This document shows, piece by piece, positions 13,290-38,386 of a stretch of 64,000 bases of DNA (position 1 is its first letter; each line of letters starts with the position of its first letter). The notes beneath the pieces were generated by a model that saw only the letters and a program-made list of their open reading frames with translations, did not search any database and had not been told where the DNA came from. Origin of the DNA: a virus (Duplodnaviria; Caudoviricetes); the IMG/VR virus record IMGVR_UViG_3300002092_001784, positions 32,001 through 96,000 of that record. One strand, written 5' to 3'. The translations under genes and the position numbers were made by a program.

Positions 13290-13493
13290 ATGGGAGTGTT
13301 AAGAGGTGAGTCTCATCCGTCAGCAAAGTTGACGGATGAGCAGGTTTTGCAAATAAGAAAGTTATGGAATATGGGGCATCGAAACCTAAAAGTGATTGCC
13401 CGTAATAATCATGTATCGCCTGCAAATATTATGAAGATTATCCATTTCAAAACTTGGACACATCTAAATGAATTTTGGTCTGGAAGTTTATAA
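13290..13493 (+). CDS. small helix-turn-helix DNA-binding protein (NUMOD-like)
   Basis: RGESHPSAKLTDEQVLQIR motif typical of endonuclease-associated HTH domains. Confidence 0.6.
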   Translation: MGVLRGESHPSAKLTDEQVLQIRKLWNMGHRNLKVIARNNHVSPANIMKIIHFKTWTHLNEFWSGSL

Positions 13494-13603: not shown

Positions 13604-14227
13604 ATGGAAACCGATAAACGCAAATTGTACAATCAAAGCTGGGAAAACCTAAAACTAGGACCAATTGGTGCATCTGAAAAGGCTAAAATCAATGGTATAT
13701 ATAAAAATTGTTTGAATTGTAACAAAGAATTTAGAGTATCACATTCTACCAGCAAAAAGAAATTTTGTAGTAAAGAATGTAAAGCAATAGGTCAATCATC
13801 TGGATTAACTGCACCAATGAGGTATGGAACAGGTAGAACAGCCATTCAAAAAATTATAGCTAATAAATATAATAGATATGTTTCGAAAGATGGTAATATC
13901 GGAATAAGTCGAACTGATTTTATTAAACTGATAGAAAGTGGAGAATGTTATTATTGTGGGTCTACCGTAACTGAAACTTTAGGATTTGATAGAATAGATA
14001 ATACAAAAGGTCATATAATTGGTAATGTCCTTATTTGCTGTGAGTTGTGTAATACAACAAAAGGGCATCGCTATTCAGTCGAACAAATGAAACAGTTGGG
14101 AAATTTAATAAAAACATTTAATTTGGATGGCTGGAGAACAATGGGTGAGTTACAATTGACAAAAATGAAAAAAACAAACGAAACGTTATATGAATTACAA
14201 AGGACAGATAAAACTGATATTGGGTGA
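13604..14227 (+). mobile_element. free-standing HNH-type homing endonuclease gene
   Basis: N-terminal CxxC..FCSxxC zinc finger; CYYCG...GFDRIDN..GH..GNV..CC..CN HNH-like core; flanked by duplicated MTase starts. Confidence 0.8.
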
Positions 14228-15587
14228 TTGTTTAGATAAGCTAAAAGAATTAGATGACAATTCCGTAGATAGTATCGTTACAGACCCACCATATGGATTG
14301 TCAGCAGCCAAAAATAGTGGTAACTCTTCGAAAGGTGGCTTTATGGGAAAATTGTGGGATTATGATGTCCCAACACAGGCCATTTGGGAGGAATGTCTAC
14401 GTGTATTAAAACCCGGAGGTCACCTATTGGCATTTGCAGGTAGTAGAACTTATCACCGAATGGCAGTTAGAATTGAAGATGCTGGGTTTGAAATCCGAGA
14501 TCAGATAATGTGGATATATGGAAGTGGATTTCCTAAGTCTATGGATATATCAAAACAGATTGATAAAAAGGCAGGAGTAGAAAGAGAAGTTATTGGACAA
14601 AAAATTAGAGGAAGTGTTGATTTGGCAAAACAATCTGGATCAACCTACGCCGTAGCAGATGCTAACAAGAATAATAAAGCTATATTTGGATATGGTGTGG
14701 AAAATTTAACTAAACCCGCAACCGATGGCGCAAAGAAATGGGAAGGTTGGGGTACTGCTCTTAAACCGGCACACGAACCAATAGTAATGGCACGCAAACC
14801 GATAGAAGAAAATACTGTTGCTGATAATGTACTAAAGTACGGAACTGGTGGTATAAATATAGATGGGTGTCGTGTTGAAACTGATGATAAATTAGATGGT
14901 GGCGCTACAAATGGTTCTGTATTGGATATTGATGGATTTGACAGACCGTGGATGCATGATGATGAAAAGATGATTGAGTTTCAACAAAAAATGCAAGATA
15001 AGGTCGAACATGCACAGAATTTAGGTAGGTTTCCCGCTAATGTTATTTTGGATGATGTTGCGGGCGAAATAATGGATGAACAAAGTGGTGTTACAAAAAG
15101 TGGAAAAATAAAGGAAGATAAATCGGCATATGATGGAGAATCAACCACTGGATTTTTAAGAGGTGTTAGTAATAGTACCAATCAGCATGGAGATACCGGC
15201 GGAGCATCTCGATTCTTCTATTGCCCAAAAGTATCAAAATCCGAAAGAAACGAAGGATTGGGTGGATTTGAACTAACTTCGGTTGAACCAAAACAAAACT
15301 TTCATCCTACCGTGAAACCAACAGACCTAATGGCATATTTGATTAGATTAGTGACACAACGTGGTGGTATCGTTTTAGACCCATTTATGGGTAGTGGTAG
15401 TACTGGTAAGGCAGCGGTGCGTGAAGGTATGAATTTTATTGGAATTGAAATGGAGCAGGATTATTTTGAACTTGCTGAAGCTAGGATTGATTGGGAAACT
15501 GAAAATCCGATGAAACCGAATAAAAAGAAATCAAATCCATTACTACCAACACCAACAAATAACACAGTTGAAACCGATTATTGGTAA
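14190..15587 (+). CDS. DNA N4-cytosine/N6-adenine methyltransferase (beta class)
   Basis: DSIVTDPPY motif IV; HPTVKP; VLDPFMGSGSTG motif I. Confidence 0.92.
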   Translation: MNYKGQIKLILGDCLDKLKELDDNSVDSIVTDPPYGLSAAKNSGNSSKGGFMGKLWDYDVPTQAIWEECLRVLKPGGHLLAFAGSRTYHRMAVRIEDAGFEIRDQIMWIYGSGFPKSMDISKQIDKKAGVEREVIGQKIRGSVDLAKQSGSTYAVADANKNNKAIFGYGVENLTKPATDGAKKWEGWGTALKPAHEPIVMARKPIEENTVADNVLKYGTGGINIDGCRVETDDKLDGGATNGSVLDIDGFDRPWMHDDEKMIEFQQKMQDKVEHAQNLGRFPANVILDDVAGEIMDEQSGVTKSGKIKEDKSAYDGESTTGFLRGVSNSTNQHGDTGGASRFFYCPKVSKSERNEGLGGFELTSVEPKQNFHPTVKPTDLMAYLIRLVTQRGGIVLDPFMGSGSTGKAAVREGMNFIGIEMEQDYFELAEARIDWETENPMKPNKKKSNPLLPTPTNNTVETDYW

Positions 15588-15591
15588 TTAA

Positions 15592-15623
15592 TTTGGTAAT
15601 GTGAAATATTTTTTGTATATTTG
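15592..15623 (+). promoter_or_regulatory. Bacteroidota sigma-70-type promoter
   Basis: TTTG-N20-TATATTTG. Confidence 0.75.
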
Positions 15624-15638
15624 AATAAATTATACAAT

Positions 15639-15935
15639 ATGGCAAAACAAGCTGATAACAGTAAAGACAAGTATGAATTAATTTTTGAAGATGAACAAGC
15701 CGTTTCCATTTGGAAATATGATCTGTCCAAAACTAAAGGTGGACCAATATCAGTAGAGTACAAATGGAAGGCCAGTTTCTTGAAAGAAGTAGAAGCAATT
15801 CGGAAAGCAGAAAGAGATGCTAAGAAAACGAAAAAATCAACTTTAGAGTTGGCAAGAGAAGCTAAGAAAAAGAAATCATCCGCAGAAAAAAAGCAAGAAA
15901 AGAAAGATAAATTTGACAAAAAGTTTTGGGCATGA
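15639..15935 (+). CDS. hypothetical protein with lysine-rich C-terminus
   Basis: ATG 15639 downstream of the promoter; ATGA-coupled to the next gene. Confidence 0.65.
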   Translation: MAKQADNSKDKYELIFEDEQAVSIWKYDLSKTKGGPISVEYKWKASFLKEVEAIRKAERDAKKTKKSTLELAREAKKKKSSAEKKQEKKDKFDKKFWA

Positions 15936-16732
15936 GAGAAGATGGTAAGAATTATTGTGATGTTTCAAAAGTGTATATTGCTCCAATAGCCAAAAACATT
16001 GCCAAAGATATTATTGTACAAAAGCATTACACACATGCGTGGACAGCATGCCGATACGCATTGGGTATTTACTATAAAGCAGAAGATTCATATACTTTTG
16101 GTGGTGATAAATTGATAGGGTGTCTTATTTACGGATTTCCTGTTGGAGTTCAAGCAGCAACTTCGATTTGTGAAGGACTTAGTAAGGATAATGCATTAGA
16201 ATTAACCCGTTTATATTGTGATGATGGTTATGGCTCAAATATTGAATCATACGCAATCGGACAATCATTCAAATGGCTGAAAGAAAATGATAAAAACATC
16301 AAACTACTTTTATCATATGCAGATGCAGGACAAGAACATTTAGGTGGTATCTATCAGGCTACCAACTGGATATATCAGGGAACATCAGCAGATATAGCAT
16401 TAATGCCTAATTGGAGAATATCATTACACAATGACCCATATGATTGGATTCACAGTAGGACTGTATTCTCAATGTGGGGTAGTGGTAATTTAGACCACCT
16501 AAAAAGGGAGATCGGTAAGCAAGGGTATAAAGAGTTCTGGCGAAAAATGGAATCGCCTAAACACCGTTATATTCAAATACTTGCGCAAGATAAAAAAGAA
16601 AAGAAGGAATTGATGAAGAAACTCAAACACGAAATCAAACCTTATCCAAAGAGTACCGATGAATTTAATACTGAAATAGTTCATCATTTAACAACATACG
16701 AAGTGCCTGCTGGGGCTGAAAACTTTTGGTAA
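15932..16732 (+). CDS. Mom-like GNAT-fold DNA modification protein
   Basis: KHY...GFP...LELTRL...NIES..I..SF..LK...LLSYAD..Q.H.G.IYQATNWIYQG pattern. Confidence 0.75.
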   Translation: MREDGKNYCDVSKVYIAPIAKNIAKDIIVQKHYTHAWTACRYALGIYYKAEDSYTFGGDKLIGCLIYGFPVGVQAATSICEGLSKDNALELTRLYCDDGYGSNIESYAIGQSFKWLKENDKNIKLLLSYADAGQEHLGGIYQATNWIYQGTSADIALMPNWRISLHNDPYDWIHSRTVFSMWGSGNLDHLKREIGKQGYKEFWRKMESPKHRYIQILAQDKKEKKELMKKLKHEIKPYPKSTDEFNTEIVHHLTTYEVPAGAENFW

Positions 16733-16735
16733 CAT

Positions 16736-16791
16736 TTAACATTAACTTAACATTAAAAGTTTGGAAAGTCAAAATAAATGTTGTATATTTG
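16736..16791 (+). promoter_or_regulatory. extended promoter: TTAACA direct repeats plus TTTG-N20-TATATTTG
   Basis: TTAACATTAACTTAACATTAAAAGTTTGGAAAG; same layout as 53267, 57619 and 57729. Confidence 0.75.
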
Positions 16792-16812
16792 AATATAATC
16801 ATTGGGAGTTAT

Positions 16813-17739
16813 ATGGATCATGAATTTTTAAGATTAAGTTACGAAGAACAACAACGATATGTTAATATGGTGGCTGGCTATCTACTGAGCGCTATAAAGC
16901 GTAGTGCAAAGGGTGCAAAAGATAAAGATCGAACTTCTGGTCGAATGGATGCTTTGGCCATTACAATTACATTAGATGATTTAAAAAATAAATTATGGAA
17001 ATCAAATTGCTGTTGTTCCATTACTAGAAAGCCGTTTCCAATTGTAGATAGTTCTGTATATTTTTCGAAGTCCAAGGCACGTTCAATTGGAAACTGTGGG
17101 TTAGAATCTCCATCGGCAGACCGAATTGATTCGGCTGGATTTTATTCAAACGAAAATGTTCAGATAACATATAGGTCAATAAATCTATTAAAATCAACGT
17201 ATTCCAACGAAGAAACAAATACTCATTTATTAAAAATAAACACAAACCCTATGAACGTAAATCAGTTAAAAACAAACACAAATCGTATGAATCATCCAGA
17301 AGTTTTAAGAGAATTGGTATTAACTTTACCATTTGAACAACAAACCCAAGTCATAACTTTAATCGGTCGAAATGATATTGAAAACGCTGATTTTGTGAAT
17401 GGTATGAAAAAGTTGTTTGGTTATATTGGTGTGAATGTAAATCGAATTACTTCGAATGTAACCAATACACATATTAAAAAGTATAAATCAAAAGATGTAA
17501 AACCGATTGTCCGATATATGGAAGACAACTCCAAATTAATATCTAATATTGATAATTCTTATATTAATGTTTCCAAATTACATGTGGGGAAGAACGGTAC
17601 TGATAAATACAGATTGGCATCATCAAAAATAGGTAATCTGATTATGGAAAATAAACCACAACTATTCAAAATTTGGGCAACTAACAATAAATTTGATTTT
17701 TTAATCAAAAAATCAGATTATGATATTTTAATTGGCTGA
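16813..17739 (+). CDS. HNH-like nuclease domain protein with unknown C-terminal half
   Basis: CCSIT...SPSADRIDSAGFYSNENVQITYRSINLLK; start refined to ATG 16813 after the promoter. Confidence 0.6.
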   Translation: MDHEFLRLSYEEQQRYVNMVAGYLLSAIKRSAKGAKDKDRTSGRMDALAITITLDDLKNKLWKSNCCCSITRKPFPIVDSSVYFSKSKARSIGNCGLESPSADRIDSAGFYSNENVQITYRSINLLKSTYSNEETNTHLLKINTNPMNVNQLKTNTNRMNHPEVLRELVLTLPFEQQTQVITLIGRNDIENADFVNGMKKLFGYIGVNVNRITSNVTNTHIKKYKSKDVKPIVRYMEDNSKLISNIDNSYINVSKLHVGKNGTDKYRLASSKIGNLIMENKPQLFKIWATNNKFDFLIKKSDYDILIG

Positions 17740-17768
17740 TACTAAACTAAAACAATTATGAAATATTG

Positions 17769-18884
17769 ATGAATTTTTGGGAAGGTCAAATTAGTAAAGA
17801 TGCTAGAAAAGTGTTGGTGATACCGAATATCACCAACTCTAGCAATATAGAGAAAGATTCATTCGTAGATGTTATTTACAACCACATAAAGGGGTTAGAG
17901 CAATACGGTGAATACTTTTGGAATATCATATTGCCAGAACCGGTTAAGAAGTTGAATTTACCCAATGTAAAGCAACATGTCTTACCATTTTCTGGTGATA
18001 TGATAAAAATGCGTACATATCCACCTGATATGAATCGTATTCTTGAGCAAGTAGACTATGATGTAATATATTCACATTTACCCGATTGGCCGCAGGTTGG
18101 TAGATACCGAAACAATTTTGATACAAAAATAATTGGGTATTGTCATTGGTGGGAAATGAAAACTTGCAATGCGGAAGATCGAAAGAATAAATGGCGATGG
18201 TTACCAGTTGAATTGTTAGGTATATCACAAATGGAAACTTGTTATTTGAATACTCAAGATCAAAAGAATAGAGTTTTAGCCGAAGCAAGTGATACTTTCA
18301 ATAGTGAGTTTGTTGCTAAATTAGACTCAATATTAACAGTATGGAATTTGGGATTACCAAAAGATAAAATAGTTGATAACGCATCAAATGATAAATCTAA
18401 CATAATCGTATTCAATCATAGAGCAGCTGCATATAAGGGATATCCTGATTTTATTAAGTTGATGGTAGAGTATCGTGAAAAAAGACAAGATTTTAGCGTA
18501 TGGGTGCCTCAATTAAATGGTACTCCATCTGAAAATTGGATTGATAATACGAAGATGCCAAAGCATGAATATTATAAACGATTACAGCAATGTAAGGTTG
18601 GTGTGCAGATGAGGCAAACTAATTACGGTTGGAGTGTATCGGGTACAGATTGCATGATGAACGGTACACCTATGATTTTTCAAGATTCCCTTTGTTATAG
18701 AGAAATAGACCCAAATGGTATGTTTTTCAAATACAAAAAAGACTTTTTCGAAATGTTGGACAAAATGTTAGATGATGAATCTTTCAGAAAAGAACATGAA
18801 GTTAGGAGTATAAATAGAGCAATCGAACTTTCAGCCAATGAAGGTATAATGCTTGCTGAATTACACAAAAAACTAAATAGCTAA
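17769..18884 (+). CDS. GT-B fold glycosyltransferase, candidate DNA glycosyltransferase
   Basis: IVFNHR...KG and GWSVSGTDCMMNGTP (GT4-like); coupled to PolB. Confidence 0.7.
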   Translation: MNFWEGQISKDARKVLVIPNITNSSNIEKDSFVDVIYNHIKGLEQYGEYFWNIILPEPVKKLNLPNVKQHVLPFSGDMIKMRTYPPDMNRILEQVDYDVIYSHLPDWPQVGRYRNNFDTKIIGYCHWWEMKTCNAEDRKNKWRWLPVELLGISQMETCYLNTQDQKNRVLAEASDTFNSEFVAKLDSILTVWNLGLPKDKIVDNASNDKSNIIVFNHRAAAYKGYPDFIKLMVEYREKRQDFSVWVPQLNGTPSENWIDNTKMPKHEYYKRLQQCKVGVQMRQTNYGWSVSGTDCMMNGTPMIFQDSLCYREIDPNGMFFKYKKDFFEMLDKMLDDESFRKEHEVRSINRAIELSANEGIMLAELHKKLNS

Positions 18885-21406
18885 TGGCATATCAAAACAT
18901 TTATTTTCAGAGAAATCAAAATCTAATGCACATTTGGGATGATCATCGGGGATATAGGACATTTCCGTATTCTCGTTATGCATATCAAAAAGACCCAAAT
19001 GGACAATTTACGTCTTTATATGGCGATAAACTTACTAAAATTTTCAAATTTTCAAAGGATGATCCAAATTTATTCGAATCCGATGTCCCAGAAACTACAC
19101 GGGTTTTGGTAGATACATATACGGATAGTGATTTACCATCGGAAGGACATATCATTTTAACATATGATATTGAGGTTGAAATGGATTCCGGTCTTCCTGA
19201 TGTTCAGAAGGCTGAAAATGAAATAACTGCTATTGGTTTGCATGATTCTGCTACAAACCATTATTGGGTATTGATTATGGATAAAGCCGGTAAGATGGAT
19301 GGTGTTGAAACTGGAAACCGAACCGTTATACCGTTTAGATACGAAGATGATTTATTATTAAAATACATTGATTTGTATGAGGAAATAAATCCAACAATCG
19401 TTACTGGATGGAATATTGATAATTTTGATACTCCGTTTTTATACAATAGAATAAAAAGATTATTGGGTGAGAAGCAAGCCAATCGTTTATCGCCGATTGG
19501 TGAGGTGTTCTGGTCACCATATCGTAAACGATATTTTATTGCCGGTGTATCTTATTTGGATTACATTGAATTGTATAAGAACTTTACATATTCGGAGTTA
19601 GCAAATTACCGCTTGGACAGTATTGCTAATATCGAATTGGGTAGAGGAAAACTTGAGTATACTGGAAATTTGGATAACCTGTTTAAGACAGACCCTAATA
19701 AGTTTATAGAATACAACATTACTGACGTTGAGTTGGTGGTTAGTATGGATGCTAAATTACAATTCATTGATTTGTGTAGAGGTATATGCCATGCAGGCCA
19801 CGTTCCGTATGAAGATTTTGTATATTCATCGAAATACCTTGAAGGCGCTATTCTTTGTTATTTGAAACGAAGGGGTATTGTTGCTCCTAACAAACCTGCG
19901 GATAGGCAGGAAAGGATGCAGGCTCTTAAAGATAATGAGCAAGAAAAGTTCATTGGTGCATATGTGAAGGCACCGATAGTTGGTAAGTATGAATGGGTGT
20001 ATGACTTAGACTTAACATCGCTATATCCATCTATCATTATGGGTGTAAATATATCACCGGAAACCAAAGTTGCTAAGATTTCGAATTGGGACTCTTCAAA
20101 GTATATGAAGGGCGAGATTGATACATTTAATATTGATGGACAATCCATTACCAACGATAACCTTAAACTGATGTTGCAAGAGGAAAAATATACTATTTCA
20201 TCAAACGGTGTATTATATCGGACAGATAAAGTAGGTTGTATACCTGATATTTTGGATTTATGGTTCAATCAGCGTGTTGAATTTCGTAAGTTAGAAAAGA
20301 AATACGGTGAAGAAGGTGATAAGGTACAACATGCATTTTATAAAAGGAGACAGCATGTTCAGAAGATTTTGCTTAATTCACTTTATGGTGTATTAGGTTT
20401 GCCAGCGTTTCGTTTCTACGATGTTGATAATGCAGAAGCAGTTACAACTTCTGGGCAGATGGTTATTAAATCAACTGCGGATATGGCTAACATCAAATAT
20501 AACAAAGAATTGGGAACGGGTGATGCAGATTATAATATTTACATCGATACGGATTCCATTTTCTTTAGTGCAGTGCCGATTTTGGATTTCCGATATGCGG
20601 ATTGGAGAAGTGGTACTCAAGAAGATATAGCAAAATTGGTTGATACTGTTGCAGGTGAAACGCAAGATTATCTGAATAATTTTTATAACATTTTAGCGGA
20701 GAGGGTATTTAATATTCCAAAAGGTAAACATCGTTTTCAGATTAAGAAAGAGTTTGTATCCAGAAGTGCAATTTGGTTAGCTAAGAAACGATATGCTATG
20801 GCAATTGTAGCTGAAAATGGATTACCAATAAATAGGTTGGATGTAAAGGGATTAGACGTTGTACGTTCATCATATCCTGCACAGTTCCGTAAATTTATGA
20901 GTGAGGTATTGATTGATATTCTGAATGGTAAAACAGAAAATGAGTTGAGTGATAAGATATATTACTTTAAGTTGGACCTTAGAAATATGGATGCCGTTTC
21001 AATAGCTAAAAATTCGGCAGTAAAAGAATTATCGAAGTATATTCCGAAAGGAAAGCAAACGGCAATGTTTCGATTTAATTCCGGTACTCCTGCGCATGTG
21101 AAGGCGGCAATTGCATTTAATCAATTAATTAAACATTTTAATTGTCCTACAAGTATTGAACCAATGCGTGATGGTGATAAGATAAAATGGATGTATCTGA
21201 AACAAAATCCGTATGGGTTGGATGCCGTTGGGTTTAAGGGATACGAAGACCCGACAGAAATAATTGAGTTCATAAAAACATATGCTGATTATGATGAAGT
21301 ATTTGAACGTGAACTTCTAGGTAAGTTGGAAGATTTCTATACCGCATTGAAGTGGGGTTCGCCGTTAGGTAGCACGAAAGTCTCAGAACAATTTTTTCAA
21401 TTTTAA
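18884..21406 (+). CDS. polB: family B DNA polymerase (T4 gp43-like)
   Basis: TYDIEV ExoI, DLDLTSLYPS, KILLNSLYG, YIDTDS, KKRY, KGLDVVR. Confidence 0.97.
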   Translation: MAYQNIYFQRNQNLMHIWDDHRGYRTFPYSRYAYQKDPNGQFTSLYGDKLTKIFKFSKDDPNLFESDVPETTRVLVDTYTDSDLPSEGHIILTYDIEVEMDSGLPDVQKAENEITAIGLHDSATNHYWVLIMDKAGKMDGVETGNRTVIPFRYEDDLLLKYIDLYEEINPTIVTGWNIDNFDTPFLYNRIKRLLGEKQANRLSPIGEVFWSPYRKRYFIAGVSYLDYIELYKNFTYSELANYRLDSIANIELGRGKLEYTGNLDNLFKTDPNKFIEYNITDVELVVSMDAKLQFIDLCRGICHAGHVPYEDFVYSSKYLEGAILCYLKRRGIVAPNKPADRQERMQALKDNEQEKFIGAYVKAPIVGKYEWVYDLDLTSLYPSIIMGVNISPETKVAKISNWDSSKYMKGEIDTFNIDGQSITNDNLKLMLQEEKYTISSNGVLYRTDKVGCIPDILDLWFNQRVEFRKLEKKYGEEGDKVQHAFYKRRQHVQKILLNSLYGVLGLPAFRFYDVDNAEAVTTSGQMVIKSTADMANIKYNKELGTGDADYNIYIDTDSIFFSAVPILDFRYADWRSGTQEDIAKLVDTVAGETQDYLNNFYNILAERVFNIPKGKHRFQIKKEFVSRSAIWLAKKRYAMAIVAENGLPINRLDVKGLDVVRSSYPAQFRKFMSEVLIDILNGKTENELSDKIYYFKLDLRNMDAVSIAKNSAVKELSKYIPKGKQTAMFRFNSGTPAHVKAAIAFNQLIKHFNCPTSIEPMRDGDKIKWMYLKQNPYGLDAVGFKGYEDPTEIIEFIKTYADYDEVFERELLGKLEDFYTALKWGSPLGSTKVSEQFFQF

Positions 21407-21409
21407 TAT

Positions 21410-22372
21410 ATGAAAGTTACAGTTGTAATTAGAACATATAATAGGACTGATTTTTTGAAGCAGTGTCTTGCTTCAGTGAAGTTGCAAACACATACCGATT
21501 GGGAAGTTTTAATATTTGATGATGGTGGTAGTGATGCTAATTTTGAAATATACAATAAATTTAAGGCAGAAAATTCCGATAAACGAATAGTATATCTAAC
21601 AACACACACTGCGTATGAACTATTTTGTAATTCATGGTTACTTGCTCCCAATTTGGCAACGGGTGATATTATGGTTAGGTTGGATGATGATGATCTATTA
21701 GCAGAAGATTGTTTGAGTTACATATCCGATTTATATGAACGAAATGAAGATTTAGATTTCACATACGGAACTGCGGTTACATTTGATGGTGATAATCTTA
21801 TGACTATGATGGATACAATGAATCCACAAGAAGCACCTAAAACTCAAACTGCATGGGCTGGTTATACTATACCAAATAATCATCCATGGAGAGACCCGTT
21901 TTGTTGGTATGAGAATTATTATGAAGAACCTCAACCATTTACATCTATAATCCATTGTAGTAAATCGAATATAATGTGCATTTATCATTTATATTCAATG
22001 AGAACTGAATCGGTCAGACGTGTGAAGGATAAGATTACAGTAACTTCTAAATATGTAGATGATTTGGAATTTTTAGGAAGTTTGGATTATTTGGGATTAA
22101 CACATACATCAATACATAAAATACTTTCTTATGTTAGAGAGCATGATACAGGTAGGGTATCTGATAGGGGTAAGTTAACCGATGGTACTACATTGTGGGA
22201 TGATATACTGAGAATTAGAGATAAAGTAGATTATTTAAGACCTGCTGGATTTCAATCAAGAGTAATACCAATCAACGCAACCAATAATACCAATAACGGT
22301 ATTACCTATGAGTTACAAAATACGTTCTCACACTATTATAGTAGAATAAAATTCAAATCTTTAGTATATTAA
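21410..22372 (+). CDS. glycosyltransferase family 2
   Basis: VVIRTYNR, LIFDDGGSD, RLDDDD. Confidence 0.85.
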   Translation: MKVTVVIRTYNRTDFLKQCLASVKLQTHTDWEVLIFDDGGSDANFEIYNKFKAENSDKRIVYLTTHTAYELFCNSWLLAPNLATGDIMVRLDDDDLLAEDCLSYISDLYERNEDLDFTYGTAVTFDGDNLMTMMDTMNPQEAPKTQTAWAGYTIPNNHPWRDPFCWYENYYEEPQPFTSIIHCSKSNIMCIYHLYSMRTESVRRVKDKITVTSKYVDDLEFLGSLDYLGLTHTSIHKILSYVREHDTGRVSDRGKLTDGTTLWDDILRIRDKVDYLRPAGFQSRVIPINATNNTNNGITYELQNTFSHYYSRIKFKSLVY

Positions 22373-22404
22373 TTTGGAAATACGAATAATTTTTCGTATA
22401 TTTG
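22373..22404 (+). promoter_or_regulatory. Bacteroidota sigma-70-type promoter
   Basis: TTTG-N20-TATATTTG upstream of the clamp gene. Confidence 0.75.
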
Positions 22405-22439
22405 TACAGAATATAAAATTTAACAATAAACTTTGAAAC

Positions 22440-23135
22440 ATGAAAAGAGCAAAACTCGATGGTTTTATTAATCGTTACAATTTGGGTGGCGAAATTGAGT
22501 CTGTTATGATTAAATCAACAGATGAAAAATTATCAGTCCGTATGATTTCGGATGATAAAACATTATTGGGAACAGTATCTATGTTGGATACTGAATTTCC
22601 TACGGGAGAATTTGGAATTTATACAACTTCCCAATTGAAGGGATTACTGAATGTATTGGATGATGGCATCACCGTAGAGGAAGTTACAGGTGCATTAAAA
22701 TTTTCGGATAAGAAAACCAAAATGCAATATATGTTGGCAGCGCCATCGGTTATTCCATCCGTACCAGAACTTAAAGCATTACCTGCATTTGAAGCAGAAA
22801 TTGCATTGAATGATGAATTTGTAAATAAGTTCATTAAATCTACCGGAGCATTATCTGATTCTCTTACATTTACATTCACCTACAAAAAAGGTGTTGGTGA
22901 GATTATTTTAGGATATTCATCTATCAATTCAAATCGTATTGCTATTGATACTGATACGAAATCGGAAGTTGATATTGAACCAATTGCGTTTTCATCAAAA
23001 TATCTGAAAGCTATTCTTAATGCAAATCGGGGTGCTAAAACATCTTCATTGAAGATTTCATCTAAGGGGTTGGCAGCTGTTTCATTTGAGGCAGATGAAT
23101 ATACTACCCAGTATTATCTTGTTGAAGTAAAATAA
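22440..23135 (+). CDS. DNA polymerase sliding clamp (T4 gp45-like)
   Basis: 231 aa; FGIY...L..LL and YMLAAPSVIP patterns; replisome context. Confidence 0.75.
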   Translation: MKRAKLDGFINRYNLGGEIESVMIKSTDEKLSVRMISDDKTLLGTVSMLDTEFPTGEFGIYTTSQLKGLLNVLDDGITVEEVTGALKFSDKKTKMQYMLAAPSVIPSVPELKALPAFEAEIALNDEFVNKFIKSTGALSDSLTFTFTYKKGVGEIILGYSSINSNRIAIDTDTKSEVDIEPIAFSSKYLKAILNANRGAKTSSLKISSKGLAAVSFEADEYTTQYYLVEVK

Positions 23136-23150
23136 TTAAAATCATAAAGT

Positions 23151-24365
23151 ATGAATTTTTGGGATACTGAACCACAAACACCTGTTTTTGATTTTGATAT
23201 TGAAAAACAGAAATTGATTGAAAATATGGATTATCTGTTTGCAATGTCCGTTCAAGAACAGACACTTTATAAAAAATGGGTGGAGCTCCAAGAACCTACC
23301 ATGCAGAAAGATAAATCCCAAATATCCACATATTATGATATGCAATGGAAACCAACCGATATCAATAATAAGGAACTAACGATTGCCGAAATTCAATCGT
23401 TAGAACCTTATGTTGAGATTGTGGATGATAATGCTGCCGAATCTACCAAATGGGCTCAAATCCGTAGAATGATTCATACAATGGATTTTACGGCAAACCC
23501 CGGTAGAAATGTGAAAATCAATGTAAAGGATAGAAAGACGGGTAAGTTATTGGGTCAAATTTCTCTTGCATCGGATGTTACATCATTGGGGGTGCGTGAT
23601 GAATATATTGGGTGGACTAAGGATGACAAATTCAAAAAAGGTAAACTGAATCACACTACCATTGCATCTACTATTGTATGTACACAGCCATTGGGATATA
23701 ACTTTTTGGGTGGTAAACTGATAGCTATGATGTGTACTGTACCTGAAGTTAGAGAACATTGGAAGAAAAAATACGATAATACTTTAATCGCAGTTGGAAC
23801 AACTTCGTTATATGGTATCAATTCTCAGTACACAGGCCTTCCACTTTTCAAAACTTTGGGTGAAAGTAAAGGTAAGATCAGTATAAAACCTGATGATAAA
23901 TTTTATGATCCATGGCACCAATGGTTAAAAGAAAATCGTACAGAGTGGTATAAGAAAAACATAACAGAAGAGCGTGAACGAAATGGCGCTAATATGGGTT
24001 ATGAACGAAATGGACCTGTTAGTGGCATCAAACAAAAGATTCTTACACAAATTTTCAAAGAGTGTGGTATTAAAGCAAATGAATATCATCACGGATTTAA
24101 GCGTGGAATTTATTTGGCTATGATGTACGAAAATGGTAATGATTTTCTTTGTGATAAAATTGGTGAAGACCAACTAAAACTTAGAGATAAGTTTGTGAAG
24201 GGAACAGATTATATTATGGAGTGGTGGAAACGACACGCTATTAGTAGATATACCAAGCTACATACAGAGGGACGTTTGAAACCGGATCATCTTTTTTACA
24301 TCAATGGTATAGGACAAGATTGGGATAGCTTTAAGGCCGAATACTTAGGAGAAGTTGGACGTTAA
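23151..24365 (+). CDS. DUF4338 / Druantia DruA-like protein
   Basis: PGRNVK..VKDRKTGKLLGQISLASDV..L..RD.YIGW and YNFLGGKLIA...TTSLYG pattern. Confidence 0.7.
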   Translation: MNFWDTEPQTPVFDFDIEKQKLIENMDYLFAMSVQEQTLYKKWVELQEPTMQKDKSQISTYYDMQWKPTDINNKELTIAEIQSLEPYVEIVDDNAAESTKWAQIRRMIHTMDFTANPGRNVKINVKDRKTGKLLGQISLASDVTSLGVRDEYIGWTKDDKFKKGKLNHTTIASTIVCTQPLGYNFLGGKLIAMMCTVPEVREHWKKKYDNTLIAVGTTSLYGINSQYTGLPLFKTLGESKGKISIKPDDKFYDPWHQWLKENRTEWYKKNITEERERNGANMGYERNGPVSGIKQKILTQIFKECGIKANEYHHGFKRGIYLAMMYENGNDFLCDKIGEDQLKLRDKFVKGTDYIMEWWKRHAISRYTKLHTEGRLKPDHLFYINGIGQDWDSFKAEYLGEVGR

Positions 24366-24376
24366 AAACAATAATT

Positions 24377-24556
24377 ATGAAACAGTATGTCAGACTATGG
24401 GGTGATGCTAGTGAGCAATATTTATGGTCATATTTAGAAGATTTGGTTAACAAAGGTTATACGATTATTTCAGTAACTCCAACTGAATGGTATACAAAAC
24501 CATTTAGACCAGACCACTATCAGGTAGTTGAAGCAGTCATTATAGTAAGTAAGTAA
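24377..24556 (+). CDS. hypothetical protein (59 aa, not in the ORF track)
   Basis: ATG..TAA ORF MKQYVRLWGD...VIIVSK exactly fills the gap. Confidence 0.55.
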   Translation: MKQYVRLWGDASEQYLWSYLEDLVNKGYTIISVTPTEWYTKPFRPDHYQVVEAVIIVSK

Positions 24557-24561
24557 AACGT

Positions 24562-24873
24562 ATGAAAATGGAAGAAACGATAAAAAAATATACAGATTTA
24601 GGAGTACTGCCTGAGAAAGTAGTATATACGCCGCTTTCCTCATTATGTATATGGTCTATAAGTAGAAAGTGTTTAGTTGGGAGTGATGCGAAGTATCCTG
24701 CCGAAGAGTTGGTTAAGGACGGTAAAAACTATAAAATTACTTATGAAAATAACCGTATGGTATCATTACATATTCATACTACTATAAATGCCGATGAGAT
24801 CAATAAATCGGAAGGTATTATAGTTACAGAGTGTGATACATTTTTTCGTTATGAATTTATACCTACAAAATAA
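24562..24873 (+). CDS. hypothetical protein
   Basis: 103 aa ORF. Confidence 0.55.
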   Translation: MKMEETIKKYTDLGVLPEKVVYTPLSSLCIWSISRKCLVGSDAKYPAEELVKDGKNYKITYENNRMVSLHIHTTINADEINKSEGIIVTECDTFFRYEFIPTK

Positions 24874-24890
24874 AAATTAAGAAATTAAAT

Positions 24891-25316
24891 ATGAAAGTAA
24901 AAATAAAAAAACTATCAAATACAGCAGTAATACCAACATATTCAAAACCCGGAGATGCTGGATTGGATTTAACCGCAACTGGAATTATAAGTAATACGAC
25001 TTTCGAAATTACATATGGAACTGGTATTGCATTACAAATCCCAGACGGATATGTTGGATTGATATTTCCTCGTTCATCTATACGAAAATACGAATTACAA
25101 CTGAGTAATTCAGTTGGTGTAATAGATAGTGGATACAGGGGAGAGATACAGTTTACATTTAATAAAACAAACAAACTTGATTCGTTCTCGTATCGTGTAG
25201 GTGATAGAATCGGGCAGATTATAATATTACCATATCCACAAATTGAATTTGAAGAAACGGATGAACTATCTGATACGGAAAGAGGTGATGGTGGGTTTGG
25301 GCATACTGGAAAATAA
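24891..25316 (+). CDS. dut: trimeric dUTP diphosphatase
   Basis: DAGLDL, FPRSS, VGVIDSGYRGEI, RIGQ, RGDGGFGHTG. Confidence 0.95.
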   Translation: MKVKIKKLSNTAVIPTYSKPGDAGLDLTATGIISNTTFEITYGTGIALQIPDGYVGLIFPRSSIRKYELQLSNSVGVIDSGYRGEIQFTFNKTNKLDSFSYRVGDRIGQIIILPYPQIEFEETDELSDTERGDGGFGHTGK

Positions 25317-25324
25317 TACGAATT

Positions 25325-25858
25325 ATGAGTCAAACAATTAAATTATTAAAAGAAGCATTAAAAGATATAGCCGGAGATACTACCGGCTATAAAATTTACT
25401 GTGATATGGATGGTGTTCTTACGGATTTTGATAAACAATTCAAAGATATAACAGGTATACCTGCTAATGAATTTGAAAAAACACATTCTCAAACTGAATT
25501 TTGGGGAGAAGTTGAAAAGGGCGGATTGGAATATTGGACAAAAATGGAATGGATGCCGGGTGGAAAGCAGTTATGGAATTTTATTAAGAACTATGATGTT
25601 GAAATTCTATCAGCTCCATCAAAATCTAAACTTTCAATTATTGGTAAAAAGCAATGGGTATCTGAAAACCTATCACCTAAACCTAAATTGAATTTGGTTA
25701 GAGCCAAAGAAAAACAGAAGTTTGCAAATTCACACGCAATACTAATCGATGATAGACCACAAAATTTAGAACAATGGAAAGCAGCCGGTGGTATTGCAAT
25801 AAAATGTGTGAATGGTGAGGTTAGTTCAGTAATAGATAAATTAAAAAAATATGTTTGA
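25325..25858 (+). CDS. 5'(3')-deoxyribonucleotidase (HAD superfamily)
   Basis: IYCDMDGVLTDF, ILSAPS, ILIDDRPQNLEQWKAAGG. Confidence 0.85.
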   Translation: MSQTIKLLKEALKDIAGDTTGYKIYCDMDGVLTDFDKQFKDITGIPANEFEKTHSQTEFWGEVEKGGLEYWTKMEWMPGGKQLWNFIKNYDVEILSAPSKSKLSIIGKKQWVSENLSPKPKLNLVRAKEKQKFANSHAILIDDRPQNLEQWKAAGGIAIKCVNGEVSSVIDKLKKYV

Positions 25859-26792
25859 AACAGTAAACGAAAAGAAAAACAACAGTTTATGGACTGAGTC
25901 ATACCGACCAACCAAATTGGCGGATTACATCGGAAATGAACACTTAAAATCAAAAGTAGAGGGGTATTTGGAATCGGGCGATATACCTCATTTACTGTTA
26001 TATGGCAAAGCTGGAACTGGTAAGACTACATTGGCTAAATTGATTGTAAATTCAATCGATTGTGATATGATGATTATCAACGCATCTGATGAAAACAATG
26101 TTGAAACAGTTAGAACAAAGGTGAAGAACTTTGCATCGTCTATGGGATTCAAACCATTTAAGATTGTTATTTTGGATGAGTTTGATTATATGACTGCAAA
26201 CGCACAGGCGATTCTTCGTAACTTAATGGAAACATTTTCACAGCATTGCCGGTTTATCTTAACGTGTAATTATGTTGAAAAGGTAATTGAACCAATTCAG
26301 AGCAGATGTCAGACATTTCAAATCGTACCGCCAACTAAAAAAGATGTTGCAATTCGGATAAGTCAAATATTGAAAGACCAGAACATAAAGTTTGAGTTGA
26401 AGGATTTGGTTCCTGTTATTGATGCAGCATATCCTGATATTCGTAAGATTATTAATACCTGTCAACTTAATTCTATTAAAGGTGAATTGAAGGTTGATGT
26501 TCAAAATCTGTTAGAGAATGATTATAAGACCAAAATTGTGGACATTCTTACATCTAAAAATGATAAAAGAAATAAGTACATGCAATGCAGGCAAACTCTT
26601 ATTGATTCAAAGGTTACAGATTTTACCGAACTATATACGTTACTTTACGATAAAGTTGACGAATACGGCGGTGAAAATACAGCTAATATCATTTTGATAT
26701 TAGGGGAGAGTGTATATAAGAGTGCGTTGGCAATCGACAAAGAAATCATTGCTGCGGCGACAATTATTAGTATCATTAATCTGATAGGATAA
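25851..26792 (+). CDS. clamp loader AAA+ subunit (RFC/gp44-like)
   Basis: LWTESYRP, GKAGTGKT, INASDE, ILDEFD, IQSRC. Confidence 0.93.
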   Translation: MFETVNEKKNNSLWTESYRPTKLADYIGNEHLKSKVEGYLESGDIPHLLLYGKAGTGKTTLAKLIVNSIDCDMMIINASDENNVETVRTKVKNFASSMGFKPFKIVILDEFDYMTANAQAILRNLMETFSQHCRFILTCNYVEKVIEPIQSRCQTFQIVPPTKKDVAIRISQILKDQNIKFELKDLVPVIDAAYPDIRKIINTCQLNSIKGELKVDVQNLLENDYKTKIVDILTSKNDKRNKYMQCRQTLIDSKVTDFTELYTLLYDKVDEYGGENTANIILILGESVYKSALAIDKEIIAAATIISIINLIG

Positions 26793-26812: not shown

Positions 26813-26909
26813 ATATTTATATATGTAGGGTCACAGCTACATAAATAACGAATTAAAATATACCCATTGGTGAGTAGAGACTGTGACCTCGAAAGCCTAT
26901 GGGTTTTTT
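26813..26909 (+). ncRNA. candidate structured RNA (two hairpins with 8-bp loop-loop complementarity) upstream of the GIY-YIG gene
   Basis: TATGTAG/CTACATA stem with loop GGTCACAG; ACCCAT/ATGGGT stem containing CTGTGACC; T6 tract; ATATTTAT box at 26813. Confidence 0.6.
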
Positions 26910-26915
26910 ATTAAG

Positions 26916-28047: not shown

Positions 28048-28536
28048 ATGGCTAAAACTGTAAAGGAAAAAAAAGAAGTTATAAAAACAACAAAAACGTT
28101 GTTCGATCATATTAAAGCGGTTACCAACGATCAAAATCCCAAATATTGGGAAAGTTTGGACGAATCGGATAAAAAGACGTGGTCGAACTATATGATTATA
28201 CGATTTATGACTATGAATCCGGATTGGGTTGAGTTGATTTCTGAAGTACAACCGTATTTGCAAGAAGCTCCGCCTAAAGCAGTTTATAAGGCATTGATTG
28301 GTGTAATACCTAAAAGTAGGGCGTTTTTGAAGTATATGAAAGCCGCATCATCGGAAACCTATGAACAATGGGTAGTTGATTTGGTAGCTAAGTATTATGG
28401 TGTGAGTCTTATGGAAGCAGAAGATTATTTACATATTTTGTATAAGAGCCATACTGGAAAACTTCATATTAAAGAGATAGCTGAATCATTTGGAACTGAT
28501 ACCAAAAGTATCACAAAACTAAAATTAGGAGTATAA
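28048..28536 (+). CDS. probable clamp loader small subunit (gp62-like)
   Basis: Size, NYMIIRFMT motif, position near the gp44-like gene. Confidence 0.55.
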   Translation: MAKTVKEKKEVIKTTKTLFDHIKAVTNDQNPKYWESLDESDKKTWSNYMIIRFMTMNPDWVELISEVQPYLQEAPPKAVYKALIGVIPKSRAFLKYMKAASSETYEQWVVDLVAKYYGVSLMEAEDYLHILYKSHTGKLHIKEIAESFGTDTKSITKLKLGV

Positions 28537-28555: not shown

Positions 28556-28603
28556 AAAATATCCGGGTAAATTTGTTTATTCGGATATTTTTTTGTATCT
28601 TTG
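28556..28603 (+). promoter_or_regulatory. 16-bp hairpin (terminator-like) overlapping a Bacteroidota promoter whose -33 TTTG forms the loop
   Basis: AAAATATCCGGGTAAA-TTTG-TTTATTCGGATATTTT; TTTG 28572 then N20 then TATCTTTG 28596. Confidence 0.65.
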
Positions 28604-32001: not shown

Positions 32002-32007
32002 TAAGTT

Positions 32008-38385: not shown

Positions 38386-38386
38386 T

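What the first reader, a model, noticed from the sequence alone, without database searches (positions are those of the whole stretch)
14190..25858. Multi-layer DNA hypermodification cassette embedded in the replisome operon
Seen: N4/N6 MTase, Mom-like GNAT, GT-B directly before PolB, GT2 directly after PolB, DUF4338, dUTPase and a 5'-deoxyribonucleotidase are interleaved with PolB and the clamp. Known: Mu Mom modifies adenine through a GNAT fold, and T-even phages glucosylate hmC with GT-B enzymes. No hmC/hmU synthase or TET/JBP gene is visible in this window. Inference: possibly an uncharacterised base, such as an acylated adenine that is then glycosylated, or the precursor enzyme lies outside the window.
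Basis: partly seen in the sequence, partly recalled or inferred. Interest (0 to 1): 0.7.

Follow-up and report, generated by a model that had tools for sequence, protein, structure and literature searches.

The report
Conserved DNA-modifier genes beside phage polymerase
A giant lake phage keeps a Mom-type adenine modifier, a second enzyme of the same fold (DruA-like) and a sugar-adding enzyme next to its DNA polymerase. Relatives conserve these three genes more tightly than the polymerase, which points to an undescribed DNA decoration, while the other enzymes listed in the finding are unrelated add-ons.

Summary
The listed genes are all present at the stated coordinates. They are not one cassette.

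**Conserved core.** In 80 related IMG/VR loci, a Mom-family protein, a DruA/DUF4338 protein and a GT4-like GT-B glycosyltransferase travel with PolB.
- The DruA-like protein has a GNAT fold, and Mu Mom is its top structural match.
- All three are more conserved than PolB (GT-B 64/66 loci, DruA-like 57/57, Mom 41/41).
- Relatives usually carry two Mom copies.
- The GT-B family is rare. Its distant homologs (31-44% identity) in unrelated phage contexts again sit beside a DruA-family gene in 6 of 8 informative cases.

**Add-ons.** The MTase, GT2, NT5C and three homing-type endonucleases are absent from those 80 loci. GT2 also follows PolB in a relative that lacks the trio near PolB. dUTPase and NT5C look like ordinary nucleotide metabolism.

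**Pyrimidine routes.** The complete 266-kb genome has one ThyA with canonical residues beside DHFR, and no DpdA was found. The Tet/JBP search was blank but its controls were silent.

**Reading.** This is a replication-linked purine modification module: Mom acts on adenine N6, and the DruA-like GNAT and GT-B act as a coupled pair, possibly on a glycosylated adduct. The chemistry is inferred, not shown.

First-stage notes of this scan flagged a GT-B glued to PolB, and DUF4338 abutting PolB, in other genomes.

The parts
13290..13493 (+). Small conserved gene (67 aa) that always precedes the Mom/MTase slot; function unknown
   Evidence: 60-79% identity in 38 related loci, always between thioredoxin and Mom2
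13604..14227 (+). HNH endonuclease with an N-terminal zinc-finger-like Cys cluster; lineage-specific insert next to the MTase
   Evidence: HNH-type Cys/His/Asn motif visible in the translation; no counterpart in 80 loci
14190..15587 (+). Beta-class N6-adenine-type DNA methyltransferase with a long insert between DPPY and the SAM motif; ends in ...DYW; occupies the slot that holds the second Mom paralog in relatives
   Evidence: PF01555 E 4e-35, CcrM-like NCBIfam hits; DPPY and FMGSGS; absent from 80 loci but present in the closest ENA relative
15621..15935 (+). Lys-rich small protein conserved just upstream of Mom; ends ...FWA; function unknown
   Evidence: 37-47% identity in 10 loci; C-terminus
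15926..16732 (+). Mom-family GNAT (adenine N6 modifier); invariant C-terminal [FY]W
   Evidence: PF25680 153 bits; Mu residues H58 Y59 R111 S124 D149 Y159 W181 conserved, R151 replaced by Gly (PMC13219725); [FY]W end in 49/49 orthologs
16726..17739 (+). HNH-like endonuclease in the variable slot between Mom and the GT-B
   Evidence: phrog_3322 E 6e-8; in relatives this slot holds GmrSD_N-like or HATPase_c_3 proteins
17766..18884 (+). GT4-like GT-B glycosyltransferase abutting PolB; core member, partner of the DruA-like gene
   Evidence: AF2 pLDDT 91; VIA Z 28.6, rmsd 3.0 over 335 aa to 6kih, also MshA and BshA; 69-82% identity in 80 loci; rare family, 157 representatives
18884..21406 (+). Family B DNA polymerase; C-terminus FFQF
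   Evidence: PF00136 and PF03104; 50% identity to Microcystis phage Mel-JY01 PolB; FFxF end in 61/62 loci
21410..22372 (+). GT2 (GT-A type) glycosyltransferase; sub-clade insert, not linked to the core trio
   Evidence: PF00535 E 5e-20; absent from 80 loci; follows PolB in a contig without Mom, GT-B or DruA near PolB and sits in an unrelated context in L086
22440..23135 (+). Sliding clamp (gp45-like)
   Evidence: phrog_223 E 6.5e-11; 43-76% identity in 66 loci
23151..24365 (+). DruA/DUF4338-family protein with a GNAT core; core member
   Evidence: PF14236 77 bits, PADLOC DruA E 1.6e-16; model top VIA hit Mu Mom 8bv8, Z 9.0 over 174 aa, all other rows GNATs; 61-86% identity, present in 29/29 well-flanked loci
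24891..25316 (+). dUTPase; ordinary nucleotide metabolism
   Evidence: PF00692 E 5e-26; also in Mel-JY01, which lacks the trio near PolB
25325..25858 (+). 5'-deoxyribonucleotidase (NT5C); sub-clade insert
   Evidence: PF06941, phrog_2643 E 1e-25; absent from 80 loci; present with GT2 in the contig lacking the trio near PolB
25851..26792 (+). Clamp loader AAA+ subunit (gp44-like)
   Evidence: PF00004, PF13177
26883..27737 (+). GIY-YIG/NUMOD3 homing endonuclease insert
   Evidence: PF07460, PF01541; absent from 80 loci
28048..28536 (+). Clamp loader A subunit (gp62-like)
   Evidence: PF16790 E 2.7e-5, below cut-off; syntenic in relatives
28556..28591 (+). Intrinsic-terminator-like hairpin ending the replisome unit
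   Evidence: 16-bp stem followed by a T run, directly after clamp loader A

Best explanation
The stretch is a replisome operon with two kinds of passengers.

**(1) A conserved core module, most likely for post-replicative DNA base modification.**
- It contains a Mom-family GNAT, a DruA/DUF4338-type GNAT, and a GT4-like GT-B glycosyltransferase that is the DruA-like gene's regular partner.
- The Mom-family enzyme would, by homology to Mu Mom, move an aminoacyl group from charged tRNA to adenine N6 in duplex DNA.
- I propose that Mom modifies adenine directly.
- I propose that the DruA-like GNAT puts an acyl or aminoacyl adduct on DNA, and that the GT-B then glycosylates that adduct from an NDP-sugar.
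- Co-transcription with PolB, clamp and clamp loader would time this to new DNA.
- Mom1's invariant C-terminal [FY]W may tether it to the clamp, as PolB's FFxF tail presumably does.

**(2) Lineage-specific add-ons that act on their own.**
- An N6-adenine methyltransferase arrived with an HNH endonuclease and replaced the second Mom paralog.
- The other add-ons are a GT2, an NT5C nucleotidase and two further homing-type endonucleases.

**Shown:** gene identities, folds, synteny, conservation ranks, the DruA-GT-B pairing, and the lack of found pyrimidine-precursor enzymes.

**Inferred:** DNA as the substrate of DruA-like and GT-B, the order of steps, the donors, and clamp tethering.
For: **Synteny and conservation.**
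- In 80 IMG/VR loci the GT-B abuts PolB or sits between DruA and the clamp loader. Mom, a second Mom paralog and DruA-like lie alongside in three arrangements.
- Identity to the window exceeds that of PolB in 64/66 loci (GT-B), 57/57 (DruA-like) and 41/41 (Mom).
- Of 29 loci with at least 6 kb on both sides, DruA is in 29, Mom in 24, and two Mom copies in 21.

**The DruA-GT-B pair.** Distant GT-B homologs (31-44% identity) lie directly beside PF14236 genes in contexts with a terminase, a DnaB or another PolB. That holds for 6 of 8 informative cases.

**Mom.** It keeps seven Mu active-site residues that were validated by mutagenesis (PMC7261163, PMC13219725).

**DruA-like.** It is a GNAT whose top structural hit is Mu Mom. 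DUF4338 has been called a GNAT independently (PMC10853773).

**GT-B.**
- It has a GT4 fold with Z 28.6.
- It keeps the D-V-I-x-S-H and H-R-x3-Y-K-G motifs.

**The neighbourhood is about DNA.**
- The variable slots hold GmrSD_N-like nucleases, a HATPase_c_3 protein and another N6_N4 MTase.
- In this lineage an adenine MTase sits exactly where Mom2 sits in relatives.

**C-terminal motifs.**
- Mom1 ends in [FY]W in 49/49 loci, and PolB ends in FFxF in 61/62.
- In this genome only 5 of 358 ORFs end in [FYW]W(x). Three of them are the adjacent MTase, the small ORF and Mom.

**Pyrimidine routes.**
- One ThyA with L143, D169 and N177 lies beside DHFR.
- No ThyX and no TGT/DpdA were found (PMC13326640).
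Against: - No data on the DNA itself exist. Only 2017 contigs are public for this phage.
- Mu's essential R151 is Gly here, and the dimer residue W48 is not kept. The donor or target may therefore differ from Mu's.
- The first Glu of the GT4 EX7E motif is Tyr and the second is Asp.
- The nearest structural neighbours of the GT-B act on small molecules or lipids (MshA, BshA, SPS). Known DNA glycosyltransferases rank lower (HY126 rank 17, T4 AGT rank 34).
- DruA-like genes occur widely without any GT-B in Pelagibacter and Synechococcus myophages.
- GT-B and DruA-like lack the C-terminal aromatic motif.
- The Mom product has no hydroxyl, so a sugar would need an N-linkage or a different adduct.
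- A large sugar cluster at 30.5-49 kb shows that this phage also does glycan chemistry, which need not involve DNA.
Confidence: 0.5

Rival explanations
1. Only Mom and the methyltransferase act on DNA. The DruA-like GNAT and GT-B pair modifies something else: a replisome or host protein, a tRNA, or a small molecule such as a nucleotide or cofactor. It sits in the replisome operon only for early expression.
For: - The closest structural neighbours of the GT-B use small-molecule or lipid acceptors (MshA, BshA, tetrahydrobiopterin GT).
- Most GNATs acylate proteins or metabolites. The Z scores for Mom and for other GNATs are within about 1 of each other.
- GT-B and DruA-like lack the C-terminal aromatic motif shared by Mom1, the MTase and PolB.
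- In Pelagibacter phage Mosig the DruA-like gene sits among MazG, deformylase and 2OG oxygenase genes, not replisome genes.
Against: - The pair recurs next to PolB, DnaB or PolA genes in unrelated phages.
- It sits inside the clamp-loader operon of cyanophage S-SCSM2R.
- It is flanked by Mom paralogs, MTases and GmrSD-like nucleases.
- In bacteria, DruA belongs to Druantia, a DNA-directed defence (PF14236 description, PADLOC hit).
Confidence: 0.27
2. There is no pathway. The replisome operon is simply a permissive landing site, helped by homing endonucleases, for unrelated accessory genes. Each acts alone: Mom makes N6-carbamoylmethyl-dA, the MTase makes m6A, and the glycosyltransferases serve virion or host glycans fed by the 30-49 kb sugar cluster.
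For: - Three homing-type endonucleases lie in the stretch.
- MTase, GT2 and NT5C are sub-clade inserts.
- Gene order of the trio varies among clades.
- The nearest isolate, Mel-JY01, has the bare backbone.
- A conserved GT1 follows the operon even in Mel-JY01.
Against: - The trio is more conserved than PolB, the clamp and the clamp loader. That is unlike a set of morons.
- DruA-GT-B adjacency survives down to 31-44% identity in unrelated genomes.
Confidence: 0.15
3. The DruA-like protein is a decoy or dominant-negative mimic of host DruA that blocks Druantia type I defence, and the GT-B is an unrelated neighbour.
For: - It matches the bacterial DruA models (PF14236 77 bits; PADLOC E 1.6e-16).
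- No DruE-type MZB domain is found anywhere in the genome, so it is not a complete Druantia system.
Against: - A 61-86% conservation that exceeds PolB, with many invariant polar residues around the GNAT core, fits an active enzyme rather than a mimic.
- The regular pairing with the GT-B is unexplained by this reading.
- Homologs are widespread in SAR11 and Synechococcus phages.
Confidence: 0.05

Closest known systems
Phage Mu Mom (PF25680), a Gly-tRNA(Gly)-dependent GNAT that makes N6-carbamoylmethyl-dA (PMC13219725; structure 8bv8)
   Same: - The window's Mom scores 153 bits on the family model.
- It keeps H58, Y59, R111, S124, D149, Y159 and W181, and the region of the helix-turn-helix-like insertion.
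- Several Mom copies in one large phage are already known (PMC7824862).
   Different: - R151, essential in Mu, is Gly here, and W48 is not kept.
- There is no Com-type zinc-finger regulator.
- The gene sits in the replisome operon rather than at a late-gene end.
- It carries an invariant C-terminal [FY]W.
- It travels with a DruA-like GNAT and a GT-B.
DruA (DUF4338, PF14236) of Druantia type I defence
   Same: It matches the Pfam and PADLOC DruA models over about 270 residues. It has a GNAT core, as noted for DUF4338 in PMC10853773.
   Different: - It is encoded by a phage.
- No DruB-E genes are present, and no MZB/DUF1998 helicase domain is found in the genome.
- It is paired with a GT-B glycosyltransferase that matches no PADLOC Druantia model.
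- The biochemical function of DruA itself is not described in the papers I could search.
T-even and RB69-type DNA glycosylation: T4 AGT/BGT on 5hmC, and arabinosyltransferases on 5hoC (PMC13326640)
   Same: A GT-B-fold enzyme is encoded in a T4-like phage. The model aligns with T4 AGT (1xv5) and with the phage HY126 glycosyltransferase (9iqz).
   Different: - There is no ThyA-type hydroxymethylase or 5-hydroxylase. The single ThyA has L143, D169 and N177.
- There are no Pfam AGT or BGT hits.
- The GT-B is closer to GT4 enzymes such as MshA, BshA and SPS.
- Its constant partner is a GNAT, not a ThyA homolog.
Microcystis phage Mel-JY01 replisome operon (nearest sequenced isolate)
   Same: The backbone is shared: thioredoxin, dUTPase, PolB (50% identity), clamp, clamp loader, clamp loader A, PD-(D/E)XK nuclease, then GT1.
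   Different: The fetched 20.5-kb stretch around the Mel-JY01 PolB has no Mom, DruA-like gene, GT-B, MTase, GT2 or NT5C.

Membership tests
Mom family (PF25680) | Family HMM above the gathering score | tested here: met
   153.1 bits against a cut-off of 27.1; phrog_1384 E 2e-46
Mom family (PF25680) | Active-site residues H58, Y59, R111, S124, D149, Y159 (241-aa numbering), validated by mutagenesis in Mu | tested here: met
   All are invariant in the alignment with Mu Mom, the window's Mom and four relatives (residues from PMC7261163 with a +10 offset, and from PMC13219725)
Mom family (PF25680) | R151, essential in Mu (R151A is inactive) | tested here: not met
   The aligned position is Gly in Mom1 and Asn in Mom2; the loop alignment could be shifted
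Mom family (PF25680) | Use of Gly-tRNA(Gly) as donor and duplex-DNA adenine as acceptor | not testable with these tools
   Needs a biochemical assay or nucleoside mass spectrometry
DruA / DUF4338 (PF14236) | Family HMM above the gathering score | tested here: met
   77.4 bits against a cut-off of 27; PADLOC DruA E 1.6e-16
Druantia type I system | DruA together with DruB-D and the DruE helicase (MZB/DUF1998) | tested here: not met
   No PF09369 match in the 266-kb genome, with controls positive; the neighbours are replisome genes
GNAT superfamily (for the DruA-like protein) | GNAT core fold | tested here: met
   All 50 top VIA rows are GNAT-fold proteins. Mu Mom 8bv8 is first at Z 9.0, rmsd 4.2 over 174 aa. 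Model pLDDT is only 73
GT-B fold / GT4-like glycosyltransferases | Two-Rossmann GT-B fold | tested here: met
   pLDDT 91; Z 28.6, rmsd 3.0 over 335 aa to 6kih; MshA Z 28.2
GT-B fold / GT4-like glycosyltransferases | Pfam GT4/GT1 models above their cut-offs | tested here: not met
   PF13439 21.4 bits (cut-off 28.5); PF00534 18.9 bits (cut-off 26.4)
GT-B fold / GT4-like glycosyltransferases | Donor-binding R/K motif and EX7E motif (features recalled from my knowledge of GT4 enzymes) | tested here: inconclusive
   H218-R219-x3-Y-K224-G and E313 are conserved. The EX7E positions read Y287 and D295
T4 AGT/BGT DNA glucosyltransferases | Family HMMs PF11440 and PF09198, plus a dCMP hydroxymethylase in the genome | tested here: not met
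   No family match, though the controls were silent. The only ThyA homolog is a canonical TS
5hoC glycosylation systems (RB69/DLP3 type) | ThyA homolog with D169N | tested here: not met
   The motif reads Q-R-S-V-D, with Asp at the position of E. coli D169, and N177 is kept (criterion from PMC13326640)
Beta-class N6/N4 DNA methyltransferases (PF01555) | DPPY catalytic motif before the FxGxG SAM motif | tested here: met
   DPPY at 32-35 and FMGSGS near residue 400; E 4e-35
GT2 glycosyltransferases (PF00535) | Family HMM above the cut-off | tested here: met
   72.4 bits against a cut-off of 23.3

The most novel reading that the evidence does not exclude
The DruA/DUF4338-type GNAT installs an acyl or aminoacyl adduct on a DNA base, and its obligate GT-B partner glycosylates that adduct.
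- This would give a sugar-bearing hypermodified base that does not descend from hydroxymethyl- or hydroxy-pyrimidines.
- By extension, bacterial DruA would be the DNA-marking enzyme of Druantia type I. It would play the part that the methylase DruM plays in type II (my recollection of the type II composition, not checked here).
Probability: 0.22. Interest if true: 0.9.

Novelty: new variant of a known kind. Interest (0 to 1): 0.66.

Why it matters
- Every glycosylated phage DNA base described in the papers I read starts from a ThyA-made 5-hydroxymethyl or 5-hydroxy pyrimidine. Here a sugar transferase is locked to GNAT enzymes of the Mom/DruA type, in a genome where I found no such precursor enzyme. 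A different chemistry is therefore likely.
- The module is core equipment of an abundant clade of lake phages. The clade yields thousands of DruA-like proteins in metagenomes, from contigs up to about 300 kb.
- The module is conserved above the polymerase, so it is probably essential for these phages.
- It offers a tractable handle on DruA, a Druantia component whose activity I could not find described.
- It corrects a published annotation: the 'mom' of cyanophage S-SCSM2R is a DUF4338 protein.

Tried and rejected
- **Megablast of the region against 50,697 phage genomes:** no match.
- **tblastn of the GT-B against the same set:** no match, so no cultured phage can serve as a model.
- **Profile-profile comparison of the DruA-like and Mom alignments:** nothing (probability 0.1, Neff 1.7). 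The link rests on fold only.
- **Complex prediction of DruA-like with GT-B:** no verdict.
- **The look-up of sequencing runs:** five DNA holders, all 2017 freshwater runs kept as contigs, and no RNA holder listed. Read-level signs of modification or expression could not be examined, and read laying was not used.
- **The search for related loci for GT2 in IMG/VR:** nothing. The protein search then showed many relatives at about 60% identity.
- **Wide GT-B alignment for the genome scan:** too divergent. A narrower alignment worked.
- **Tet_JBP, T4 AGT and T4 BGT family searches of the genome:** blank, but their controls were silent too.
- **Sigma-70 promoter scan:** not above shuffles.
- **Isoelectric points:** uninformative.
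- **Considered and dropped:**
  - The 207-aa ORF as a Com-like regulator; it is an HNH endonuclease.
  - The 424-aa ThyA as a hydroxymethylase or 5-hydroxylase; its diagnostic residues are canonical.
  - The claim that all candidate modifiers share a terminal aromatic peptide; only Mom1, the MTase and a small ORF do.

Full report
**What is there.** The window is part of a complete 266,153-bp virus record from freshwater metagenomes.
- a beta-class N6/N4 methyltransferase at 14190-15587, with DPPY and FMGSGS;
- a Mom-family protein at 15926-16732 (153 bits);
- a 372-aa protein at 17766-18884 with only sub-threshold GT4/GT1 hits;
- PolB at 18884-21406;
- a GT2 at 21410-22372;
- the sliding clamp at 22440-23135;
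- a DruA/DUF4338 protein at 23151-24365 (77 bits);
- dUTPase at 24891-25316;
- NT5C at 25325-25858;
- the clamp loader subunits further on.

Three homing-type endonucleases were not listed: an HNH at 13604-14227, an HNH-like gene at 16726-17739 and a GIY-YIG at 26883-27737. The only convincing + strand terminator follows clamp loader A at 28556-28591.

**The 372-aa protein is a glycosyltransferase by fold.**
- I built an alignment of 38 homologs from an exhaustive search. That search found only 157 related clusters among 1.84 billion representatives.
- The resulting model has pLDDT 91.
- It superposes on GT4 retaining glycosyltransferases: sucrose-phosphate synthase 6kih at Z 28.6 (rmsd 3.0 over 335 residues), and MshA, BshA, GlgM and PglA.
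- T4 alpha-glucosyltransferase and the phage HY126 glycosyltransferase also align, at lower rank.
- The family keeps a D-V-I-x-S-H motif in the N-terminal domain and H-R-x3-Y-K-G plus a late Glu in the C-terminal domain. The two Glu positions of the usual EX7E motif read Tyr and Asp.

**The DruA-like protein has a GNAT core.**
- Its model is weaker (pLDDT 73), but all top structural matches are GNAT-fold proteins.
- The crystal structure of Mu Mom (8bv8) ranks first in the re-alignment, at Z 9.0 with rmsd 4.2 over 174 of 202 residues. Other GNATs lie within about one Z unit.
- DUF4338 was independently called a GNAT domain (PMC10853773).
- Profile-profile comparison with Mom found nothing, so the tie to Mom specifically is by fold only.
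- The gene annotated 'methylcarbamoylase mom' in cyanophage S-SCSM2R (PMC12801897) is a homolog of this protein and a PF14236 member. It is not a PF25680 Mom.

**Mom.**
- Aligned with Mu Mom, the window's protein and its relatives keep H58, Y59, R111, S124, D149, Y159 and W181. These residues are needed for activity in Mu (PMC7261163; PMC13219725).
- R151 is essential in Mu and is Gly here. The dimer residue W48 is not kept.
- Mom is now known to transfer glycine from Gly-tRNA(Gly) to adenine N6 in duplex DNA, after which the adduct rearranges to N6-carbamoylmethyl-dA (PMC13219725).

**Comparative genomics separates a core from add-ons.**
- The nearest isolate is Microcystis phage Mel-JY01 (PolB 50% identical). 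Its PolB region, a fetched 20.5-kb stretch, has the bare backbone: thioredoxin, dUTPase, PolB, clamp, clamp loaders, PD-(D/E)XK nuclease, GT1. None of the modifiers are there.
- A scan of IMG/VR with the GT-B returned 122 relatives, and 80 loci were kept.
- In those loci the GT-B is 69-82% identical to the window's copy, against 47-79% for PolB and 43-76% for the clamp.
- Identity exceeds that of PolB in 64 of 66 loci (GT-B), 57 of 57 (DruA-like) and 41 of 41 (Mom).
- Three arrangements occur:
  - thioredoxin, small gene, Mom2, Mom1, (variable gene), GT-B, PolB, clamp, DruA;
  - Mom2, Mom1, DruA, GT-B, PolB;
  - PolB, clamp, DruA, GT-B, clamp loader.
- Of 29 loci with at least 6 kb on both sides, all have DruA, 24 have Mom, and 21 have two Mom copies. 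None has the MTase, GT2, NT5C or the endonucleases of the window.
- The window's genome has a single Mom and a single DruA-like gene. The HNH endonuclease and the MTase occupy the place of Mom2. A closer ENA relative shares this layout, including GT2 and NT5C.

**The DruA-like/GT-B pair is older than this clade.** Distant GT-B homologs (31-44% identity) sit directly beside PF14236 genes in several unrelated settings:
- a 35-kb contig near a terminase;
- a 7.6-kb contig;
- a contig with DnaB;
- two short contigs binned into MAGs (L097 and L099), with a third case within 3 kb (L098).

Two homologs show no DruA nearby, and two loci are cut at the relevant side. The reverse does not hold: DruA-like genes are common in Pelagibacter and Synechococcus myophages that have no GT-B. 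In S-SCSM2R the gene sits between the two clamp-loader genes. This one-way dependence is what one expects if the GT-B acts on the product of the DruA-like enzyme.

**GT2, NT5C and dUTPase are not part of it.**
- GT2 has many relatives at about 60% identity.
- In a 150-kb contig it follows PolB and precedes the clamp, dUTPase and NT5C, but no Mom, GT-B or DruA is present in the neighbourhood.
- Elsewhere it sits among unrelated small genes.
- dUTPase occurs in Mel-JY01 too.
- With RNR, thioredoxin, ThyA and DHFR, these are ordinary dNTP supply genes.

**No pyrimidine precursor route was found.**
- The whole genome has one ThyA-family gene, beside DHFR. It scores as a thymidylate synthase equivalog (292 bits against a cut-off of 108).
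- It carries L143, D169 and N177. Per PMC13326640, these residues separate thymidylate synthases from hydroxymethylases, 5-hydroxy-dCMP synthases and dCMP-specific enzymes.
- There is no ThyX and no TGT/DpdA.
- Tet/JBP, T4 AGT and T4 BGT searches were blank, but their controls were silent.

**The neighbourhood is a DNA-conflict hotspot.**
- In relatives, the slot between Mom1 and the GT-B holds GmrSD_N-like proteins (three loci) or a HATPase_c_3 protein.
- The slot between the two Mom genes can hold another N6_N4 methyltransferase or a RimK-type ATP-grasp ligase.
- In the contig, an Asn-synthase, radical-SAM and PLP-enzyme set plus a long MTase-like gene lies upstream of PolB.

**A C-terminal signal.** I followed a first-stage note (e1-5361909).
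- Mom1 orthologs end in [FY]W in 49 of 49 loci, while the residues before that vary.
- PolB ends in FFxF in 61 of 62 loci.
- The motif is seen in 1 of 37 Mom2 copies, 0 of 79 GT-B copies and 0 of 62 DruA-like copies.
- In this genome only 5 of 358 + strand ORFs end in [FYW]W(x). Three are the adjacent MTase, the small ORF and Mom.
- By analogy with the clamp-binding tail of T4/RB69 polymerases (my own knowledge), this may tether Mom1 and the MTase to the clamp.

**Conclusion.**
There is a genuine, strongly conserved, polymerase-linked module, but it consists of Mom (usually two copies), a DruA-type GNAT and a GT4-like GT-B.
- The MTase is a separate layer that replaced Mom2 in this sub-lineage.
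- GT2, NT5C and dUTPase are unrelated to the module.
- That the module modifies DNA is well supported for Mom. For the DruA-like/GT-B pair it is inferred from context.
- That a sugar ends up on a GNAT-made adduct is a hypothesis, at roughly one chance in four.
- I found no paper describing the DruA-like/GT-B pair.

Noticed in passing
window 30565-49017: An 18-kb sugar-chemistry cluster follows the replisome unit.
- GT1/GT4-conflict glycosyltransferase, and GT2 genes at 33842, 35460 and 44394.
- UDP-GlcNAc 2-epimerase, a GNAT, and a short DegT aminotransferase.
- A HAD plus nucleotidyltransferase fusion at 41050-42417.
- A SAM methyltransferase, an NAD epimerase/dehydratase, a second HAD, and an APS-kinase-like protein.

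The cluster could supply NDP-sugar donors for the GT-B or GT2, or it could serve virion or host glycans. The HAD/nucleotidyltransferase pairing recalls the UDP-arabinose route of RB69-type phages (PMC13326640).
   Followed up: partly
genome C1:186218-187453 (locus L002 1468-2742), outside the window: The thymidylate synthase is 424 aa, about 110-160 aa longer than solved thymidylate synthases, and matches in three separate stretches. It therefore carries insertions. It lies between a UvsE-type UV endonuclease and DHFR.
   Followed up: partly
relatives L013 6310-8004, L038 6459-8000, L065 6304-8004, L055 3229-4749, L017 4556-5440: The variable slots of the module in related phages carry GmrSD_N-like proteins, a HATPase_c_3 protein and a RimK-type ATP-grasp ligase. 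The ligase sits between the two Mom genes and might extend an aminoacyl adduct.
   Followed up: no
ENA contig of 149,854 bp (no DNA available): Upstream of a PolB split by a GIY-YIG gene lie an Asn-synthase, a radical-SAM enzyme, a PLP enzyme, a 541-aa unknown and a 523-aa MTase-like gene. This is possibly a different DNA-modification set in the same position.
   Followed up: no
Synechococcus phage S-SCSM2R, L093 6707-7828: The published 'methylcarbamoylase mom' (ORF152) is a PF14236 DruA/DUF4338 protein, not a PF25680 Mom. It sits between the two clamp-loader genes.
   Followed up: yes
window 14190-16732, and 80 related loci: Mom1 has an invariant C-terminal [FY]W (49/49 loci). The window's MTase and the small ORF between them have it too. 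PolB ends in FFxF (61/62 loci). This is a possible clamp-docking peptide.
   Followed up: partly
window 29983-30558: A 2H-phosphoesterase (LigT-like) protein with a weak Acb1 (anti-CBASS) match is conserved at 44-46% identity in several relatives.
   Followed up: no
window 55953-57578: A phage-encoded GroEL-type chaperonin. A phage contig that carries a 59%-identical GT2 homolog (L086) carries a Cpn10 gene.
   Followed up: no
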